DNA from: an uncultured Methanosarcinales archaeon
Lineage (GTDB): Archaea > Nanobdellota > Nanobdellia > Woesearchaeales > UBA11576
Length of the DNA: 64,000 nucleotides
Reading direction: 5' to 3'
NCBI GenBank assembly: GCA_964563755.1
Contig: CAZLYC010000001.1
Span: forward strand, 11,548 to 75,547
Below, in pieces: positions 14,827 to 59,842 of the stretch. Every line of letters starts with the position of its first letter. The stretch's first letter is position 1. The notes beneath the pieces were generated by a model. The model saw only the letters and a list, made by a program, of their open reading frames with translations, made no database searches and was not told where the DNA came from. Both the position numbers and the translations under genes were made by a program.

Positions 14827-14973
14827 ATGAATAAAACGAGCTGGCAAACTAGGAATGCAAAAGAGGATATCTTCGAAGACAAGGTAAGACAGCTCATGTA
14901 TAAAAGAAAAATAACATATCAGGAAGCGTCCCAACTAATAAAGAATGGGCAACGTTCAGTTTTTGATTTTTAA
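14827..14973 (+). CDS. Possible small ORF (48 aa) not in the supplied track
   Basis: ATG at 14827 (MNKTSWQTRNAKEDIFEDKVRQLMYKRKITYQEASQLIKNGQRSVFDF). No other support. Confidence 0.2.
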   Translation: MNKTSWQTRNAKEDIFEDKVRQLMYKRKITYQEASQLIKNGQRSVFDF

Positions 14974-14981
14974 GAAAGACA

Positions 14982-15072
14982 ATTGCCGCGCTCGCACTGA
15001 TTCTTTTAACGATTTCGTTTGCCCAACTACAAGTCAAGCAGATTGATTTTCTGTTGCTTGCCAGGCGGCAAT
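14982..15072. repeat. Copy A of a ~90-nt structured element (GC-rich 5' core GCCGCGCTCGCACTG, terminal helix ATTGCCGC/GCGGCAAT)
   Basis: Homologous to 59286-59380, with an identical 15-nt core and roughly 65% identity overall. The terminal inverted repeat covaries between the copies. Confidence 0.5.
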
Positions 15073-15145
15073 GACGCTAAGTTCTCTAACAATCTTTAAG
15101 CGTAATTACGCAACGTATTTAACCACACAAACCATTTTCTAATGT

Positions 15146-18471: not shown

Positions 18472-20358
18472 TCAAACATCCTTTTTCTTCACACCGAAGA
18501 TATAGATATACTGCCAGGCAAGCCCCTGCTTCCTGACAACCTTGACACTAAAACCCGCCTCTTCAAAAACAGATATTATCTTCTTATCATCTTCCAACCA
18601 ATCAATGTTAGGCAGTACATCAAAGAATTTGTCATAATCCATAAAAACAATCCGGCTCCCCTTCAATATCTTCTTGTTCAGACTCTTAAGGAAAGCCAGC
18701 TCCTCAGATATATAGCCTATCATGCCTGCAGAGACAACGACATCTACTTTAGGTATGCCCGGATGAATCTTAGACTGCTCTACCTGGAACAGCTTAACGT
18801 GATTGTGCCCTTCTTTCTTTAAACGTCTCTCAACAATCGCATGCTCATGCGGCGTTATAGATGTTCCATAAACCTTGCCGCTAGGCTTGACTTCCTCTGC
18901 GAGCAACATCGTCAATGTGCCGACACCGCAGCCATACTCTAGAACTGTCTTGTTCTTGACATCACCAAGAAGAGATATTATCTCACGACGCACACTCTTA
19001 GGCATGTCATAACTTTCGAACCATAATGACACCTTGGCCATGAAGTTATTCACTTTACCTATAAATCTTGCATCATAGAACATCTCGAGCAGGCCATAAA
19101 GAGGCAGGCCAAGAAGTATGAGAGACAATGCTGTCCTCAACTTATGAGCAGCACCTTCAGTATGCCAGAGCCAGAAGACAAGCAATGACGAAAATATCAG
19201 AACTATTATTATCGGACCGACCTTCCCGAAAGGCACTGTAAAATGTCGTTTAAGATTCGGCTTAGTGTATCTCAGCACGACGACACTTAGAAGTATGACA
19301 CTATAAAGTATCAAAAGCATAGGAAGAAGCATCTCCAAGATGAGATAATAAGAACCAGCGCCAACAATTATGACAATAGAAGATATCACTGTCTGAAGCA
19401 TTATTGCCTTGTAAGGCGTGCCATATTTAGGATGAATCGCCTCAAAGTTCTTGATGAAAAGATTATCCTCAGCCATTGAAAGTATAAGCCTTGGAGCAGA
19501 GACAACCCAGTCAGCGACCGACCCTATCACTGCCAAGTATACTATTATCGTGAAGAAAGTCAGAGCACCAGGACCAAAATAAAAATTAGCTAGATCAGAC
19601 AAAGGAGCGGTACTCTCGCCGAACTTCTGCCAGCCCATTCCACCCATTGACATGAGAACAAAGAAAAAGGATATTATGCTTATTATTATCGTACCATGCA
19701 CAAGAGCCTTTGGCATCACTTTCTCTCCGTCTTTTACCTCTCCTGCAAGATAAGTCGGAGACTCCCATCCGAAAAAAGTCTCTGCAATGAAAAATATGGC
19801 CAGGAAAATAGCAGGAATGCCTAGTGGCATGAATGGCTCAAGACTGGACTGCGAAAAATGGAACAGACCAGGAATAGCTACGGAAAGAACAGCTATCAAT
19901 GTTATGAAAGAGAAAGCGACAAGCAGATTTGCACTGACCTTCATACCTCTATAAGCAGTGAAGTTGAACATGATGATAAGAATTATTGAAACTATTATGA
20001 CAGGAATCGGCGCATGAAAAGGGAGCAGGTACTTTACAGCACCAATCATCAACATGGCAACTGTGAAGTTTGCGGTTATTATGCTAAGCCAGCCTATCAG
20101 GAAAGAAGCGAAACGGCCATATGCCTGCTTGCTGAACTCATATATTCCTCCAGCTTTAGGAAACATTGAAGTCAGCTCGCCAAAACAAGCAGCAATGTAA
20201 ACCGCCATCAACGAAAGGATTCCCCAAGAGATTAGAGAAGCAGGACCTGCCATCTTGGCACCAAGCGCAGGAAGAAAAAAGATACCTGTGCCCATTATTG
20301 AATTGATTACTATAAGAAGTATGACATGATAGCTTAAAACCCTCTTTAACTCTGCCAT
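18472..20358 (-). CDS. APC-family amino-acid permease fused to a C-terminal class I SAM-dependent methyltransferase domain
   Basis: The N-terminal ~440 aa have about 12 TM helices with the APC signature (GTGIFFLPALGA...FGELTSMFPKAGGIYEF). The C-terminal ~180 aa carry MTase motif I (VLEYGCGVGTLTMLLAEEV) and downstream motifs. Confidence 0.65.
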   Translation of the reverse strand: MAELKRVLSYHVILLIVINSIMGTGIFFLPALGAKMAGPASLISWGILSLMAVYIAACFGELTSMFPKAGGIYEFSKQAYGRFASFLIGWLSIITANFTVAMLMIGAVKYLLPFHAPIPVIIVSIILIIMFNFTAYRGMKVSANLLVAFSFITLIAVLSVAIPGLFHFSQSSLEPFMPLGIPAIFLAIFFIAETFFGWESPTYLAGEVKDGEKVMPKALVHGTIIISIISFFFVLMSMGGMGWQKFGESTAPLSDLANFYFGPGALTFFTIIVYLAVIGSVADWVVSAPRLILSMAEDNLFIKNFEAIHPKYGTPYKAIMLQTVISSIVIIVGAGSYYLILEMLLPMLLILYSVILLSVVVLRYTKPNLKRHFTVPFGKVGPIIIVLIFSSLLVFWLWHTEGAAHKLRTALSLILLGLPLYGLLEMFYDARFIGKVNNFMAKVSLWFESYDMPKSVRREIISLLGDVKNKTVLEYGCGVGTLTMLLAEEVKPSGKVYGTSITPHEHAIVERRLKKEGHNHVKLFQVEQSKIHPGIPKVDVVVSAGMIGYISEELAFLKSLNKKILKGSRIVFMDYDKFFDVLPNIDWLEDDKKIISVFEEAGFSVKVVRKQGLAWQYIYIFGVKKKDV

Positions 20359-20417: not shown

Positions 20418-20520
20418 AGCCCCCGGCGAGAGTTGCACTCGCGACCTTCTGCTTATTGCCCGTCAGTACCACAAAGCAACTGACTCGAGGCAGACACTAT
20501 AGCTACTAAGCCACGGGGGC
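20418..20520 (-). tRNA. Intron-containing tRNA-like gene; isotype ambiguous
   Basis: - Minus-strand read: acceptor GCCCCCG/CGGGGGC, D-stem GCTT/TAGT.
- Anticodon stem TCTGC/GCAGA, separated by 37 nt (7-nt loop plus 30-nt intron).
- 5-nt variable loop AGGTC; T-arm GCGAG-TGCAACT-CTCGC, an atypical T-loop.
- Poly-T follows.
- A canonical 37/38 splice gives anticodon CGA (Ser), which is incompatible with the short variable arm.
- Non-canonical splices give CGU (Thr) or CAU (Met/Ile). Confidence 0.5.
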
Positions 20521-20675: not shown

Positions 20676-20897
20676 GCATTTCATAGATTCAAAAATAAGG
20701 CGTTAGTATTTAAATTTTAGGGGTTGGCTCAAGAGCAGAAAAGCCAAGATAGTATCATTGCCACGCTCGCTCCAGAATGCGCCAATGACCGTTAAACCAA
20801 GTTCCCATTTTTCTGATGGGCTTATCGCCAGCTCGCTAGGTGGCAATGACGCATAAATACAGTAAAATTATTAAAAAAGCCCTAATTCAAACGTTTT

Positions 20898-50398: not shown

Positions 50399-50494
50399 GG
50401 CCCTGTAGCGCAGCTTGGATAGCGCGACTGCCTTCTAAGGCAGAAAAAGCTAAAGGAAAGCAGTAGGTCGTGGGTTCAAATCCCATCAGGGCCG
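50399..50494 (+). tRNA. tRNA-Arg (anticodon UCU) with a ~21-nt intron at the canonical 37/38 position
   Basis: Acceptor GGCCCTG/CAGGGCC, D-arm GCGC-AGCTTGGATA-GCGC, anticodon stem ACTGC...GCAGT, loop CTTCTA|A, intron AGGCAGAAAAAGCTAAAGGAA, variable loop AGGTC, T-arm GTGGG-TTCAAAT-CCCAT, discriminator G. Confidence 0.8.
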
Positions 50495-50497
50495 TAT

Positions 50498-50619
50498 GGC
50501 GGCGTCGCCAAATCCGGTAAGGCAATCGCCTGCAGACTGGACACAACGCTGTGTCGAGCGCGAAAGCGCGATGAGAGGAAGACAGCGATCATTTGGGGGT
50601 TCAAATCCCTCCGCCGCCT
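50498..50619 (+). tRNA. tRNA-Cys (anticodon GCA) with a ~48-nt intron containing a GNRA-capped hairpin
   Basis: Acceptor GGCGGCG/CGCCGCC with discriminator U (typical of Cys). Anticodon stem ATCGC...GCGAT, loop CTGCAG|A. The intron includes GCGCGAAAGCGCG. Variable loop CATTT, T-arm GGGGG-TTCAAAT-CCCTC, then poly-T. It starts 3 nt after tRNA-Arg. Confidence 0.75.
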
Positions 50620-58770: not shown

Positions 58771-59058
58771 CTAAAAGATTTCAACAGCCATGTCACTCTG
58801 GCTATTGAGAACAATGTATTCGTATGCCTTATTGAGCACAACGACTGCTTTAGGAAGGTCCATTGTCCTTAAAGAGCTAGAAGTCTTCCATTCGTCAGTC
58901 TCTTTGTCCTTGTAAGACCGCTCGAAAGAAACAGACCTGACTTCTGTGTCACGTCCATCTTTTGTCTTTATAGTATTGCGCCATATAGTCGCACAGATAG
59001 CGCCTGCCCTGAACTTCTTTTCAGGCAAATTTTTTCCGAATTCATTTAAGCTACTCAT
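58771..59058 (-). CDS. Small ssDNA-binding-like protein, possibly PC4/Sub1-like
   Basis: FRAGAICATIWRNTIKTKDGRDTEVRSVSFERSYKDKETDEWKTSSSLRTMDLPKAVVVLNKAYEYI resembles the PC4 beta-sheet/helix pattern. This is weak, pattern-level similarity. Confidence 0.35.
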   Translation of the reverse strand: MSSLNEFGKNLPEKKFRAGAICATIWRNTIKTKDGRDTEVRSVSFERSYKDKETDEWKTSSSLRTMDLPKAVVVLNKAYEYIVLNSQSDMAVEIF

Positions 59059-59285
59059 TTTTACTCCTCGCGTTGCTTTTCGCATCTTTTTTCAACCCGA
59101 CAAACCGCTTTTTTGCGATTTTGGGCCGCGATACAGATAACAGAGGCAGACATCGTTTAAATAGCTCATCCGAGCATGTCCAGTGGGCTGTGGAGGAATA
59201 AAACCTGCATAAGCTAAGAATTCTGCAAGACGGGAAAACGCCGAAAATATTCCGTGTGTCTAGTGCTATGCTAATTATTGGTGCA

Positions 59286-59380
59286 AGAATGCCGCGCTCG
59301 CACTGCTTCTTATTCGGTTGTTGTCTGCCCAGCTGCAAGGTAATTAGAATTTGAAAACGCTGCTCGCTAGGCGGCATTCT
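59286..59380. repeat. Copy B of the ~90-nt structured element (same GCCGCGCTCGCACTG core; terminal helix AGAATGCCGC/GCGGCATTCT)
   Basis: See copy A at 14982-15072. The terminal inverted repeat is intact in both copies despite the sequence change. Confidence 0.5.
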
Positions 59381-59389
59381 TGTCGGATT

Positions 59390-59842
59390 CTACAGGAAAA
59401 TCAAGCTGAAAATGCAAACTGCAATCAACACAAAGAAAAAAGCGTGCTCGTAAAATGCTCCTGTGTGAAAAGGTCCTCTGAATCTTAGGTGCGTCAATGG
59501 ATGGAGAGGCATTATGCCTTGTGTTGAAAATGCATCCGCAAACATGTGCGATGCATAGCCGAGCAGGAACGCTATAGAACACATCACTGAGCCAGACAAC
59601 ATGAAAAGCAGGAAAGGAAACAAGACTATAGCGAAAAAAGAGTGAAAGAACCCACGATGCTCGAAAAAAAGAGAGATTGGCCACGCCATCTGGCCGAGCC
59701 TTGATTTTGGATGGTCGATGTCAGGAAAAGCAGCTCCGAACAACAGAATAAATGCGAAAAGCAACTGGTTCGCTGGATTTAGGAACTTTATCGCAAATAT
59801 TGCTACAAGAAAACCAAATGCGATGTGAGTGCGGAAGAGCAT
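59390..59842 (-). CDS. Membrane-bound metal-dependent hydrolase-like protein (YdjM/DUF457-like)
   Basis: Four TM helices with conserved His/Asp (DIDHPKSRLG; HRGFFHS; HMFADAF). 150 aa. Confidence 0.5.
   Translation of the reverse strand: MLFRTHIAFGFLVAIFAIKFLNPANQLLFAFILLFGAAFPDIDHPKSRLGQMAWPISLFFEHRGFFHSFFAIVLFPFLLFMLSGSVMCSIAFLLGYASHMFADAFSTQGIMPLHPLTHLRFRGPFHTGAFYEHAFFFVLIAVCIFSLIFL

What the first reader, a model, noticed from the sequence alone, without database searches (positions are those of the whole stretch)
14982..15072. Structured ~90-nt element present in two diverged copies with a covarying terminal helix (second copy at 59286-59380)
Both copies begin with the identical GC-rich 15-mer GCCGCGCTCGCACTG. 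They share roughly 65% identity over about 90 nt and end in GCTxGCxAGGCGGCA.

Each is closed by a terminal inverted repeat. Copy A uses ATTGCCGC...GCGGCAAT and copy B uses AGAATGCCGC...GCGGCATTCT. The closing stems differ in sequence but keep pairing, which is the signature of a selected RNA structure.

Neither copy is coding: the only ORF over copy B is an antisense frame. There are no box C/D or H/ACA motifs that fit.

This is a candidate novel small ncRNA family or a MITE-like mobile structured element. Copy A sits in the 5' region of hjc. Copy B sits directly after the stop of the membrane-hydrolase gene.
Basis: seen in the sequence. Interest (0 to 1): 0.7.

Follow-up and report, generated by a model that had tools for sequence, protein, structure and literature searches.

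The report
Mobile hairpin repeat family in Woesearchaeota
The two look-alike 90-base stretches are real and belong to a large, undescribed family of small hairpin-forming mobile DNA repeats (MITE-like) scattered through the genomes of tiny DPANN archaea; they are most likely not a dedicated small-RNA gene.

Summary
The window holds three copies, not two: A 14982-15072, B 59284-59382, and a new copy C at 20755-20849. Pattern scans found over 100 more copies in Woesearchaeota/Nanoarchaeota MAGs and freshwater/sediment metagenomes, including at least 37 in one MAG. Rfam 15 has no match.

All copies share invariant boxes, (T)GCCRC-GCTCGC at the 5' end and GCTCGCTAGG-YGG at the 3' end. These are closed by a helix whose outer 4-8 bp differ between copies (42 distinct arms among 66) yet stay 92% Watson-Crick paired.

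The evidence favours mobile DNA over an RNA gene:
- Copy A is absent from the same RNase Z / small ORF / hjc site in five relatives.
- Three intact copies elsewhere have outer inverted repeats flanked by perfect 9-bp target-site duplications.
- Copies are intergenic with unrelated neighbours.
- No interior helix covaries.
- No promoter lies at a fixed distance.

Some observations remain unexplained. The subterminal core is invariant, and pairing is maintained by covariation. Mismatches show a weak G·U-type bias on the minus strand (17 vs 5). Copies also recur at two syntenic sites. No partner transposase was found.

Verdict: a new MITE-like family of modest interest, with a minority chance that the core is a functional hairpin module.

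The parts
14982..15072 (+). Copy A, type-1 interior. The core TGCCGC-GCTCGCA...TTTGCCCAACTAC...GCTTGCCAGG-CGGCA spans 14984-15070, closed by the 8-bp inverted repeat ATTGCCGC/GCGGCAAT.
   Evidence: The covariance model scores it 74 bits, E=8e-17 (this copy was in the training set).
15071..15093 (+). 3' tail of copy A (ATGACGCTAAGTTCTCTAACAAT). It is part of the ~110-nt block (14984-15093) that is absent in relatives. The first 12 nt resemble the tail of copy C (ATGACGCATAAAT). AACAAT at 15088-15093 repeats GACAAT at 14978-14983, a possible 5-6-bp target duplication.
   Evidence: Alignment with empty sites L058, L059, L060, L061, L062 and L123, read by eye. The boundary is uncertain by a few bases.
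20755..20849 (+). Copy C, new in this analysis, with a type-2 interior (...TTAAACCAAGTTCCC...). The core spans 20759-20845 and is closed by the 10-bp inverted repeat TCATTGCCAC/GTGGCAATGA. It lies between the divergent promoters of a 51-aa zinc-ribbon-like ORF and ABCE1/RLI.
   Evidence: The covariance model, not trained on it, scores 42 bits, E=1e-8. Interiors of the same type occur in L071, L108 and L121. ABCE1 identified.
59284..59382 (+). Copy B, type-1 interior. The core spans 59290-59376 and is closed by the 12-bp inverted repeat CAAGAATGCCGC/GCGGCATTCTTG. It lies 7 nt beyond the stop codon of the YdjM gene (59390-59842, minus strand), so that gene's transcript would read the element's reverse complement.
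   Evidence: The covariance model scores 86 bits, E=5e-20 (training member). YdjM identified.

Best explanation
These are copies of a non-autonomous mobile DNA element: a MITE-like hairpin repeat family specific to Woesearchaeota/Nanoarchaeota (DPANN archaea).

A full-length member has these parts:
- a 9-bp target-site duplication;
- an outer terminal inverted repeat of about 10-16 bp, which differs between genomes;
- an inner helix;
- the invariant subterminal boxes 5'-(T)GCCRC-GCTCGC and GCTCGC-NAG(G)-YGG-3';
- a 55-130-nt interior that comes in several unrelated types.

The elements land in the few places a compact genome tolerates, mostly directly after stop codons or between divergent promoters.

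The three window copies are 'short forms'. They keep only the core and a 2-6-bp extension of the helix. I read them as older, partly eroded or truncated insertions.

What is shown: the family is multi-copy and dispersed; copy A has filled and empty sites; TIR plus TSD occur in three intact members; and the closing helix is maintained by compensation.

What is inferred: a transposase supplied in trans, of a type that makes staggered 9-bp cuts, moves the elements; the invariant boxes are its subterminal binding sites or those of a host cofactor; and the element is handled at some step as a folded single strand, which would explain why pairing rather than sequence is conserved in the arms.
For: Spread and copy number
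- An exact-pattern scan of 185,579 species genomes gave 57 loci, 53 of them AT-rich DPANN-type contigs. At least 37 came from one Woesearchaeota MAG, JABMQF01.
- The metagenome scan gave 58 more loci.
- The covariance model finds 80 copies in 508 kb of fetched loci and exactly three in the window.

Context
- No neighbouring gene recurs.
- Copies are almost never inside real ORFs.

Insertion polymorphism
- The RNase Z / 48-aa ORF / hjc locus is syntenic in relatives whose Hjc is 74-89% identical.
- Their spacer is 59-77 nt, against 172 nt in the window, and none has the element.

Transposition hallmarks
- L062 has TIR GGCTTCATCCTAAATC and TSD GAGCTTGCA, inserted inside the 3' end of hjc.
- L056 has TSD GCCTGCCCA.
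- L108 has TIR GGCTCTGTCC and TSD ATTTCCATC.
- All three TSDs are perfect 9-mers, against 0.2 hits expected in chimeric controls.

Against an RNA gene
- Interior helices lack covariation. At columns 48/59 the four base combinations occur at independence frequencies.
- Rfam finds nothing even at E<=10.

Background: a published census reports a Woesearchaeal genome among the archaeal genomes densest in MITEs (PMC11602168, read).
Against: - No autonomous partner was found. The 5' and 3' boxes are always 66-130 nt apart, never around an ORF, and the loci hold no multi-copy transposase.
- The window copies, like most short forms, show no outer TIR and no convincing TSD. The 8/9 direct repeats around A and C are at chance level, and the one at A contradicts the alignment with relatives.
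- The most conserved part is subterminal, while the termini vary between genomes. That is the reverse of ordinary DDE transposons.
- The arms are extremely diverse (42 distinct 5-mers among 66 copies) yet 92% Watson-Crick paired. Neutral decay of transposon TIRs would not give that.
- Mismatches are biased towards A·C on the + strand, which is G·U on the minus strand: 17 vs 5, p=0.017.
- Orientation relative to tandem genes is mildly biased, 25 vs 12, p=0.047.
- Copies recur at the same syntenic spots in distant genomes: L027/L093, whose flanking protein is 67% identical, and upstream of ABCE1 in the window, L025 and L062.
- These last points leave room for a selected function.
Confidence: 0.6

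Rival explanations
1. The conserved core plus closing helix is a functional RNA module. It would be read mainly from the minus strand as part of the 3' UTR of the upstream gene. Possible roles are a protective or processing hairpin, or a protein-binding site analogous to the role proposed for REP sequences in bacterial mRNAs. Transposition would only be the vehicle, or history, that spread it.
For: - The closing helix is maintained by compensation across 66 diverse copies.
- Wobble-type mismatches favour the minus strand, 17 vs 5.
- In tandem gene contexts the minus strand is the sense strand 25 vs 12 times, with the stop codon a median of about 22 nt from the element.
- About 30 core nucleotides are invariant across more than 100 copies from many genomes, while the rest is randomised.
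- Copies are retained at two syntenic sites across flanking-protein identities of 67-77%.
Against: - Only about 3% of helix cells are G·U-type, which is low for an RNA helix.
- No interior helix covaries on either strand.
- 15 of 59 copies sit between divergent promoters and 12 are in the opposite sense. The window itself has one copy in each of the three situations.
- Both strand biases are only p of about 0.02-0.05, on non-independent copies.
- The ABCE1 site holds three different element types, which suggests repeated insertion rather than retention.
Confidence: 0.2
2. The short form is an independent hairpin-mobilised element in the style of REPIN/RAYT, IS200/IS605 derivatives or integron attC sites. 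It would be moved as folded single-stranded DNA by a HUH (Y1) or tyrosine-recombinase enzyme. The TSD-flanked 'long forms' would be other MITEs that it has nested into.
For: - Pairing, not sequence, is conserved in the arms, with very few mismatches.
- Short forms show no TSD.
- Three loci hold head-to-head doublets (L031, L080, L112).
- Different outer TIRs surround the same core.
- A Y1 transposase gene lies about 95 nt from a long-variant copy in L077.
Against: - The L077 Y1 transposase belongs to an IS200-like element. Its ends, defined from five distinct flanking contexts among nine loci, stop about 45 nt before the repeat and contain no GCTCGC core. None of those other contexts has a core element beside it.
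- No 'empty shell' MITE without the core, and no empty hairpin TGCCRCGCTCGCYAGGYGGCA, was found.
- There is no GTAG/CGTC REP tag and no attC R''/R' boxes.
- Copies are not in cassette arrays: the window copies are 6 and 39 kb apart, among housekeeping genes.
Confidence: 0.12
3. The elements are stationary host regulatory DNA: palindromic protein-binding sites, insulators or terminators that arose by local duplication, or simply duplicated intergenic DNA.
For: The copies are intergenic, close to gene ends and promoters. T4-T6 runs are common on the + strand just before the GCCCAACTGC box.
Against: - Presence/absence differs at orthologous sites.
- Three copies have TSDs.
- There was a burst of at least 37 near-identical copies in one genome.
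- The T-run lies on the antisense strand in the majority orientation.
- Flanks outside the element are unrelated.
Confidence: 0.05

Closest known systems
Prokaryotic MITEs, for example Neisseria Correia elements (NEMIS), enterobacterial ERIC/RU elements and Sulfolobus SM1-SM4 (from my own knowledge; general census in PMC11602168)
   Same: The elements are about 100-200 bp and non-coding, dispersed in multiple copies and mostly intergenic. They have terminal inverted repeats that can fold the whole element into a hairpin. Intact copies carry target-site duplications. Sites can be filled or empty, and one genome shows a burst of near-identical copies.
   Different: The invariant part is subterminal and shared across many genomes, while the true termini differ. 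The inner arms covary rather than being conserved or decaying. No cognate IS is known. Most copies, including those in the window, lack a recognisable TSD.
REP / REPIN elements mobilised by RAYT (Y1 HUH) transposases in bacteria (PMC3116915, PMC2817692, seen)
   Same: They are hairpin-forming intergenic repeats, often at gene 3' ends, and can persist long term in a lineage. Pairing is maintained. One MAG shows mosaic arrays with other repeat modules, reminiscent of BIMEs.
   Different: There is no GTAG/CGTC tag and no flanked single-copy RAYT. The only nearby Y1 transposase is an unrelated IS200-like element. 9-bp TSDs occur in three copies. The unit is one hairpin of about 100 nt rather than two 20-40-nt palindromes.
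Integron attC sites, which have been reported in archaea (from my own knowledge; not tested against that dataset)
   Same: They are imperfect inverted repeats of 60-140 bp with conserved inner boxes, a variable centre and structure-based conservation, placed directly after stop codons.
   Different: There are no RYYYAAC/GTTRRRY boxes, no cassette arrays and no intI nearby. The window copies are 6-39 kb apart among radA, hjc, RNase Z and ABCE1.
Structured small ncRNA genes of AT-rich archaea (C/D box, H/ACA and the Hgc-type GC-rich RNAs in Rfam)
   Same: GC-enriched ends in an AT-rich genome, and a closing helix supported by covariation.
   Different: There is no Rfam match at any threshold and no C/D or ACA boxes. 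Interior covariation is absent, no promoter sits at a fixed distance, and copy number and insertion polymorphism are typical of mobile DNA.

Membership tests
MITE (miniature inverted-repeat transposable element) | Small, non-coding, many dispersed copies within a genome | tested here: met
   Cores are 84-89 nt, and elements reach about 200 nt with outer parts. Length varies in single-base steps and no frame is shared. At least 37 copies occur in MAG JABMQF01, 3 in this 64-kb window and 80 in 508 kb of loci.
MITE (miniature inverted-repeat transposable element) | Terminal inverted repeats | tested here: met
   Inverted repeats run 8-12 bp in the window copies and up to about 38 bp elsewhere. 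Outer TIRs are GGCTTCATCCTAAATC (L062) and GGCTCTGTCC (L108).
MITE (miniature inverted-repeat transposable element) | Target-site duplication flanking the TIRs | tested here: inconclusive
   Perfect 9-bp TSDs occur in L056, L062 and L108, against 0.2 expected, and a 7/9 repeat flanks the second L062 copy. The window copies have none that is convincing: at best ACAAT at copy A, and the 8/9 repeats are at chance level.
MITE (miniature inverted-repeat transposable element) | Insertion polymorphism (filled versus empty orthologous sites) | tested here: met
   Copy A is absent from the syntenic site in L058, L059, L060, L061, L062 and L123. The ABCE1-upstream site is filled in the window, L025 and L062 and empty in L058 and L060.
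MITE (miniature inverted-repeat transposable element) | A cognate autonomous IS with the same ends | tested here: not met
   No ORF lies between a 5' box and a 3' box in about 900 kb of loci. No multi-copy transposase was found.
REPIN / RAYT system | REP palindromes with a conserved GTAG or CGTC head, flanking a single-copy Y1 (RAYT) gene | tested here: not met
   No such tag appears in the consensus. The one Y1 gene near a copy (L077) is an IS200-like element found in five distinct flanking contexts among nine loci, and its ends lack the core.
Integron attC site | R''/R' boxes (RYYYAAC...GTTRRRY) and arrays of cassettes next to intI | tested here: not met
   The arm consensus is GYCAA|TGCC...GGCA|TTGRC with no AAC/GTT boxes. 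The copies are 6 and 39 kb apart between housekeeping genes.
Any Rfam 15 RNA family (including tRNA, C/D and H/ACA sRNAs, and ribozymes) | Match to a covariance model | tested here: not met
   At gathering thresholds the window gives only three intron-bearing tRNAs. At E<=10 nothing falls on elements in L003, L016, L019 or L062. ARAGORN finds nothing there.
Independent structured ncRNA gene | Covariation in several helices, G·U tolerance on one strand, own promoter, expression | tested here: inconclusive
   The closing helix covaries but the interior helices do not. The G·U-type bias on the minus strand is 17 vs 5. No TATA box lies at a fixed distance. Expression cannot be tested with these tools.
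Diversity-generating retroelement TR/VR | Adenine-specific differences between repeats, a VR at the 3' end of a target ORF, and an RT gene nearby | tested here: not met
   Differences between A and B are not confined to A positions, by inspection. The copies are non-coding, with stops in the window copies.

The most novel reading that the evidence does not exclude
The invariant core (CCRC-GCTCGC ... GCTCGC-NAG-GYGG) with its covarying closing helix is a functional single-stranded hairpin module conserved across Woesearchaeota/Nanoarchaeota. One option is an RNA element acting in the 3' UTRs of many unrelated genes, read from the minus strand. The other is the recognition structure of a still-unknown hairpin-specific mobilisation system in archaea, a counterpart of bacterial REPIN-RAYT. 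In either case it would ride inside, or be the persistent remnant of, several different MITE shells.
Probability: 0.2. Interest if true: 0.65.

Novelty: new member of a known kind. Interest (0 to 1): 0.38.

Why it matters
DPANN archaea have very small, gene-dense genomes, so a repeat family that reaches dozens of copies in one genome and recurs across many lineages is a noticeable part of their non-coding DNA.

Practical value:
- The family gives a ready marker for DPANN contigs. It flags probably mis-binned contigs labelled Alphaproteobacteria or Methanosarcinales.
- It explains ORF extensions, such as the 173-aa Hjc in L062.
- It warns annotators against calling these GC-rich hairpins ncRNA genes.

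If the minority reading is right, the invariant core would be a phylum-wide cis-acting RNA element or an archaeal analogue of REPIN-type replicators. Either would be new biology, testable with existing metatranscriptomes.

Tried and rejected
1. Coding. The frames differ between copies, stops are present, and lengths vary by single bases.
2. Known RNA families, tRNA-like or ribozyme. Rfam and ARAGORN give nothing. The D-loop-like AGUUGGG on the minus strand did not lead anywhere.
3. BHB splice motif and K-turn. Threading by hand found no 3-nt bulge / 4-bp / 3-nt bulge arrangement and no tandem G·A pairs.
4. DGR template or variable repeat. The minus strand is A-rich with AAC codons in one MAG, but the copies are non-coding and differences are not A-specific.
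5. Interior hairpins P2 (CGATT...AATCG) and P3 (YGC-CCAACT-GCR). P2 is only 53% paired, and the variable pair of P3 behaves as two independent columns.
6. 'GCTCGC is a 6-bp TSD of an insert into a conserved host hairpin'. No empty hairpin exists in the window or in 123 loci.
7. Y1/IS200 transposase as the partner. The neighbouring tnpA in L077 belongs to an IS whose ends exclude the repeat.
8. Shells without a core. None was found in the limited data.
9. Viral carriage. There was one chance hit in a GC-rich terminase gene, and none with a relaxed pattern.
10. 9-bp direct repeats around window copies A and C. They are at chance level (about 0.5 expected per copy), have no TIR, and the one at A conflicts with the ORF-end homology.
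11. Recurrent neighbouring genes. None was found.
12. Exact look-ups of window proteins found nothing. The organism name of the 303-kb NCBI contig could not be recovered.

Full report
**What is in the window.** They share the exact 15-mer GCCGCGCTCGCACTG, which occurs nowhere else in the window. They also share the 3' motif GCTYGCYAGGCGGCA and 72% overall identity. Each is closed by an inverted repeat, 8 bp in A and 12 bp in B.

Searching the 3' motif with mismatches exposed a third copy at 20755-20849 (+). It has the same end boxes, a G:C to A:T compensatory change in the helix and an unrelated interior. A covariance model built from 66 other family members finds A, B and C (E = 8e-17, 5e-20 and 1e-8) and nothing else in 64 kb on either strand.

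None of the copies is coding. Frames differ between copies, stops are present, and family length varies between 84 and 89 nt in single-base steps.

**How widespread it is.** An exact scan of one genome per species with TGCCRCGCTCGC-N50-80-GCTYGCYAGGYGGC returned 57 loci. Fifty-three are AT-rich contigs of Woesearchaeota/Nanoarchaeota MAGs, and at least 37 of these come from a single MAG, JABMQF01. The four GC-rich bacterial hits look like chance.

The metagenome scan gave 58 more loci, 54 of them credible, mainly from freshwater and sediment samples. The model finds 80 copies in 508 kb of fetched loci, several contigs carrying two or three.

Viral contigs have none. Rfam 15 has no match at gathering thresholds or at E<=10. 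A full-text search for the core motif finds no relevant paper.

**Anatomy of the family.** From 5' to 3' a typical copy has:
- a variable arm of 4-8 bp;
- the box (T)GCCRC;
- the box GCTCGC(A);
- a moderately conserved 5' half (TCGATTCATTAATCGCTTCTKTTT);
- the invariant GC-CCAACT-GC;
- a variable stretch of about 25-30 nt;
- the box GCTCGCTAGG;
- YGGC(A), then the complementary arm.

At least three interior types share the same end boxes. Type 1 includes copies A and B. Type 2 has AAACCRAGNTTC and includes copy C, L071, L108 and L121. 'Long variants' have GC-rich nested hairpins (L062, L077).

Even TGCC is not universal, since variants such as AACGCCGC and GACACCGC occur. The irreducible core is therefore CCRC-GCTCGC ... 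GCTCGC-NAG-GYGG.

**The closing helix.** On 66 diverse type-1 copies the helix is 89% paired, and 11 of 18 pairs change on both sides. The covariation score is 0.323, against 0.149 for column shuffles (0 of 500 reach it) and at most 0.127 for slid registers. There are 42 distinct 5-nt arms among the 66 copies, yet 486 of 528 cells are Watson-Crick. Pairing itself is clearly maintained.

The helix does not, however, behave like a typical RNA helix:
- G·U-type cells are few.
- Duplex energies show no strand preference, with + better in 26 copies and - better in 29.
- The only asymmetry is a modest excess of A·C on the + strand, which is G·U on the minus strand (17 vs 5, p=0.017).

Neither proposed interior hairpin is supported. 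P2 is 53% paired. At the variable pair of P3, the combinations TA, TG, CA and CG occur at the frequencies expected for independent columns. RNAalifold predicts only the closing helix on either strand.

**Evidence for mobility.**
- *Context.* Flanking genes are unrelated between copies, and the copies are intergenic.
- *Empty sites for copy A.* The RNase Z / 48-aa ORF / hjc arrangement of copy A is conserved in contigs whose Hjc is 74-89% identical. There the spacer is 59-77 nt instead of 172 nt, and the element is missing. Aligning the spacers places a block of about 110 nt (14984-15093) between GACAAT and CTTTAAGCG, with AACAAT repeated at its 3' edge.
- *Transposition hallmarks.* Three members elsewhere carry outer inverted repeats flanked by perfect 9-bp direct repeats. 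These are L062 (GAGCTTGCA, inserted in the last codons of hjc and extending the ORF to 173 aa), L056 (GCCTGCCCA) and L108 (ATTTCCATC). Chimeric controls give 0.2 such hits. A second L062 copy has a 7/9 repeat.
- *Amplification.* One MAG shows a burst of near-identical copies embedded in mosaic GT-rich repeat arrays.

These are the properties of a MITE. A published census already ranks a Woesearchaeal genome among the archaeal genomes densest in MITEs, without describing families (PMC11602168).

**Where copies sit.** Among 59 non-redundant copies with both neighbours called:
- 25 lie between tandem genes on the element's minus strand;
- 12 lie between tandem genes on its plus strand;
- 7 lie between convergent genes;
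- 15 lie between divergent genes.

The nearest stop codon is a median of about 22 nt from the element's 3' side. Two ORFs actually end at the element's own CTAG. Gene starts, by contrast, are usually more than 55 nt away.

This fits insertion being tolerated only outside promoters in a compact genome. No TATA box lies at a fixed distance on either side (flanks), which argues against independent transcription units.

**What does not fit a plain MITE.**
- The termini differ between genomes, while a subterminal core is invariant.
- The arms covary instead of being fixed or decaying.
- Most copies, including the three here, lack outer repeats and a clear TSD.
- Copies recur at the same intergenic spot in distant genomes. 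L027 and L093 share an insertion point within 3 nt, although their flanking protein is only 67% identical. The zinc-ribbon/ABCE1 spacer is occupied in the window (type 2), L025 (type 1) and L062 (long variant) but empty in L058 and L060. The different types at that spot favour repeated insertion into one of the few permissive sites, but retention under selection cannot be excluded.

**Search for a partner enzyme.** No ORF lies between the 5' and 3' boxes anywhere, and there is no multi-copy transposase in the loci.

An IS200-like Y1 transposase sits about 95 nt from a long-variant copy in L077. Its homologues occur in five distinct flanking contexts among nine loci. Those contexts define IS ends that stop about 45 nt short of the repeat and contain no core box, and none of them has a repeat alongside. 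That lead is rejected. The 9-bp duplications point instead to a staggered-cut (DDE-type) enzyme, family unknown.

**Conclusion.** The finding is real and is larger than reported. It is best explained as a new MITE-like hairpin repeat family of DPANN archaea (confidence about 0.6).

A functional RNA or single-stranded DNA hairpin module spread by, or left over from, such elements remains possible (about 0.2-0.3 across the two variants). The reasons are the invariant core, the compensated helix, the weak minus-strand signals and the syntenic recurrences. The decisive data are strand-specific transcriptomes, whole-genome scans for an IS with the same ends, and strain-level presence/absence comparisons.

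Noticed in passing
window 50399-50494 (+), 50498-50619 (+), 20418-20520 (-): Three tRNA genes are 96-122 nt long, so they carry introns. Two are only 3 nt apart. ARAGORN calls just one of them, with an odd anticodon, whereas Rfam scores all three.
   Followed up: no
L062 1620-2141 and 2001-2206 (also L063): A long-variant repeat inserted in the last codons of hjc, with the 9-bp TSD GAGCTTGCA. The annotated Hjc there (P0011) is 173 aa instead of 129, because the ORF reads into the repeat.
   Followed up: yes
window 14827-14973 (+); L058 1242-1400; L060 2786-2935; L062 1414-1560: A small ORF of 48-52 aa between RNase Z and hjc is conserved in position and partly in sequence across relatives. It has no Pfam match.
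   Followed up: partly
L026 5150-5850 (-), L020 520-2120, other JABMQF01 loci: In the copy-rich MAG the element is embedded in mosaic GT-rich intergenic arrays. These include tandem 31-nt units (TTGTTTGTTATTGGTTGTGTGTGCAGGCAGC) that repeat the 3' arm, upstream modules TGACTTCTTGGTTTGC, and a downstream GTAGTATTGACTTATTAC. The layout is reminiscent of bacterial BIMEs.
   Followed up: partly
L112 21-225; L080 694-919; L031 1820-2050: These are head-to-head doublets: a minus-strand copy is directly followed by a plus-strand copy, with their 5' ends facing and 0-27 nt apart.
   Followed up: no
L077 4690-5126 (-); L124-L131: An active-looking IS200-like element encodes a 146-aa Y1 transposase, with three perfect hairpins upstream and an end at ...GGCGGAGAGGTTCAT. 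It is inserted in at least five different contexts in groundwater metagenomes and has hundreds of homologues on contigs of about 1 kb.
   Followed up: yes
L031, L046 (MAG labelled Alphaproteobacteria SMAG_U12101); L039 (MAG labelled Methanosarcinales): These AT-rich contigs carry bona fide copies of this DPANN repeat, and L031 also has a permease homologous to window 18472-20358. They are probably mis-binned DPANN contigs.
   Followed up: no
L062 3118-3140: A perfect 9-bp hairpin, AGTATTTCC-TAAC-GGAAATACT, lies just upstream of the long-variant repeat, between the divergent zinc-ribbon and ABCE1 genes.
   Followed up: no
many loci, 15-30 nt outside the core (for example L033, L056, L082, L090, L091, L097, L112): A recurrent outer motif appears as GTCAAG(TT) upstream and (AA)CTTGAC / TTGAC downstream. 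In other copies the same GTCAA/TTGAC forms the arm directly next to the core. This suggests nested or duplicated arms.
   Followed up: partly
window 58771-59085 (-): The 104-aa ORF next to copy B has no Pfam match. The 108-aa ORF at 59051-59377 (-) that overlaps copy B looks spurious.
   Followed up: no
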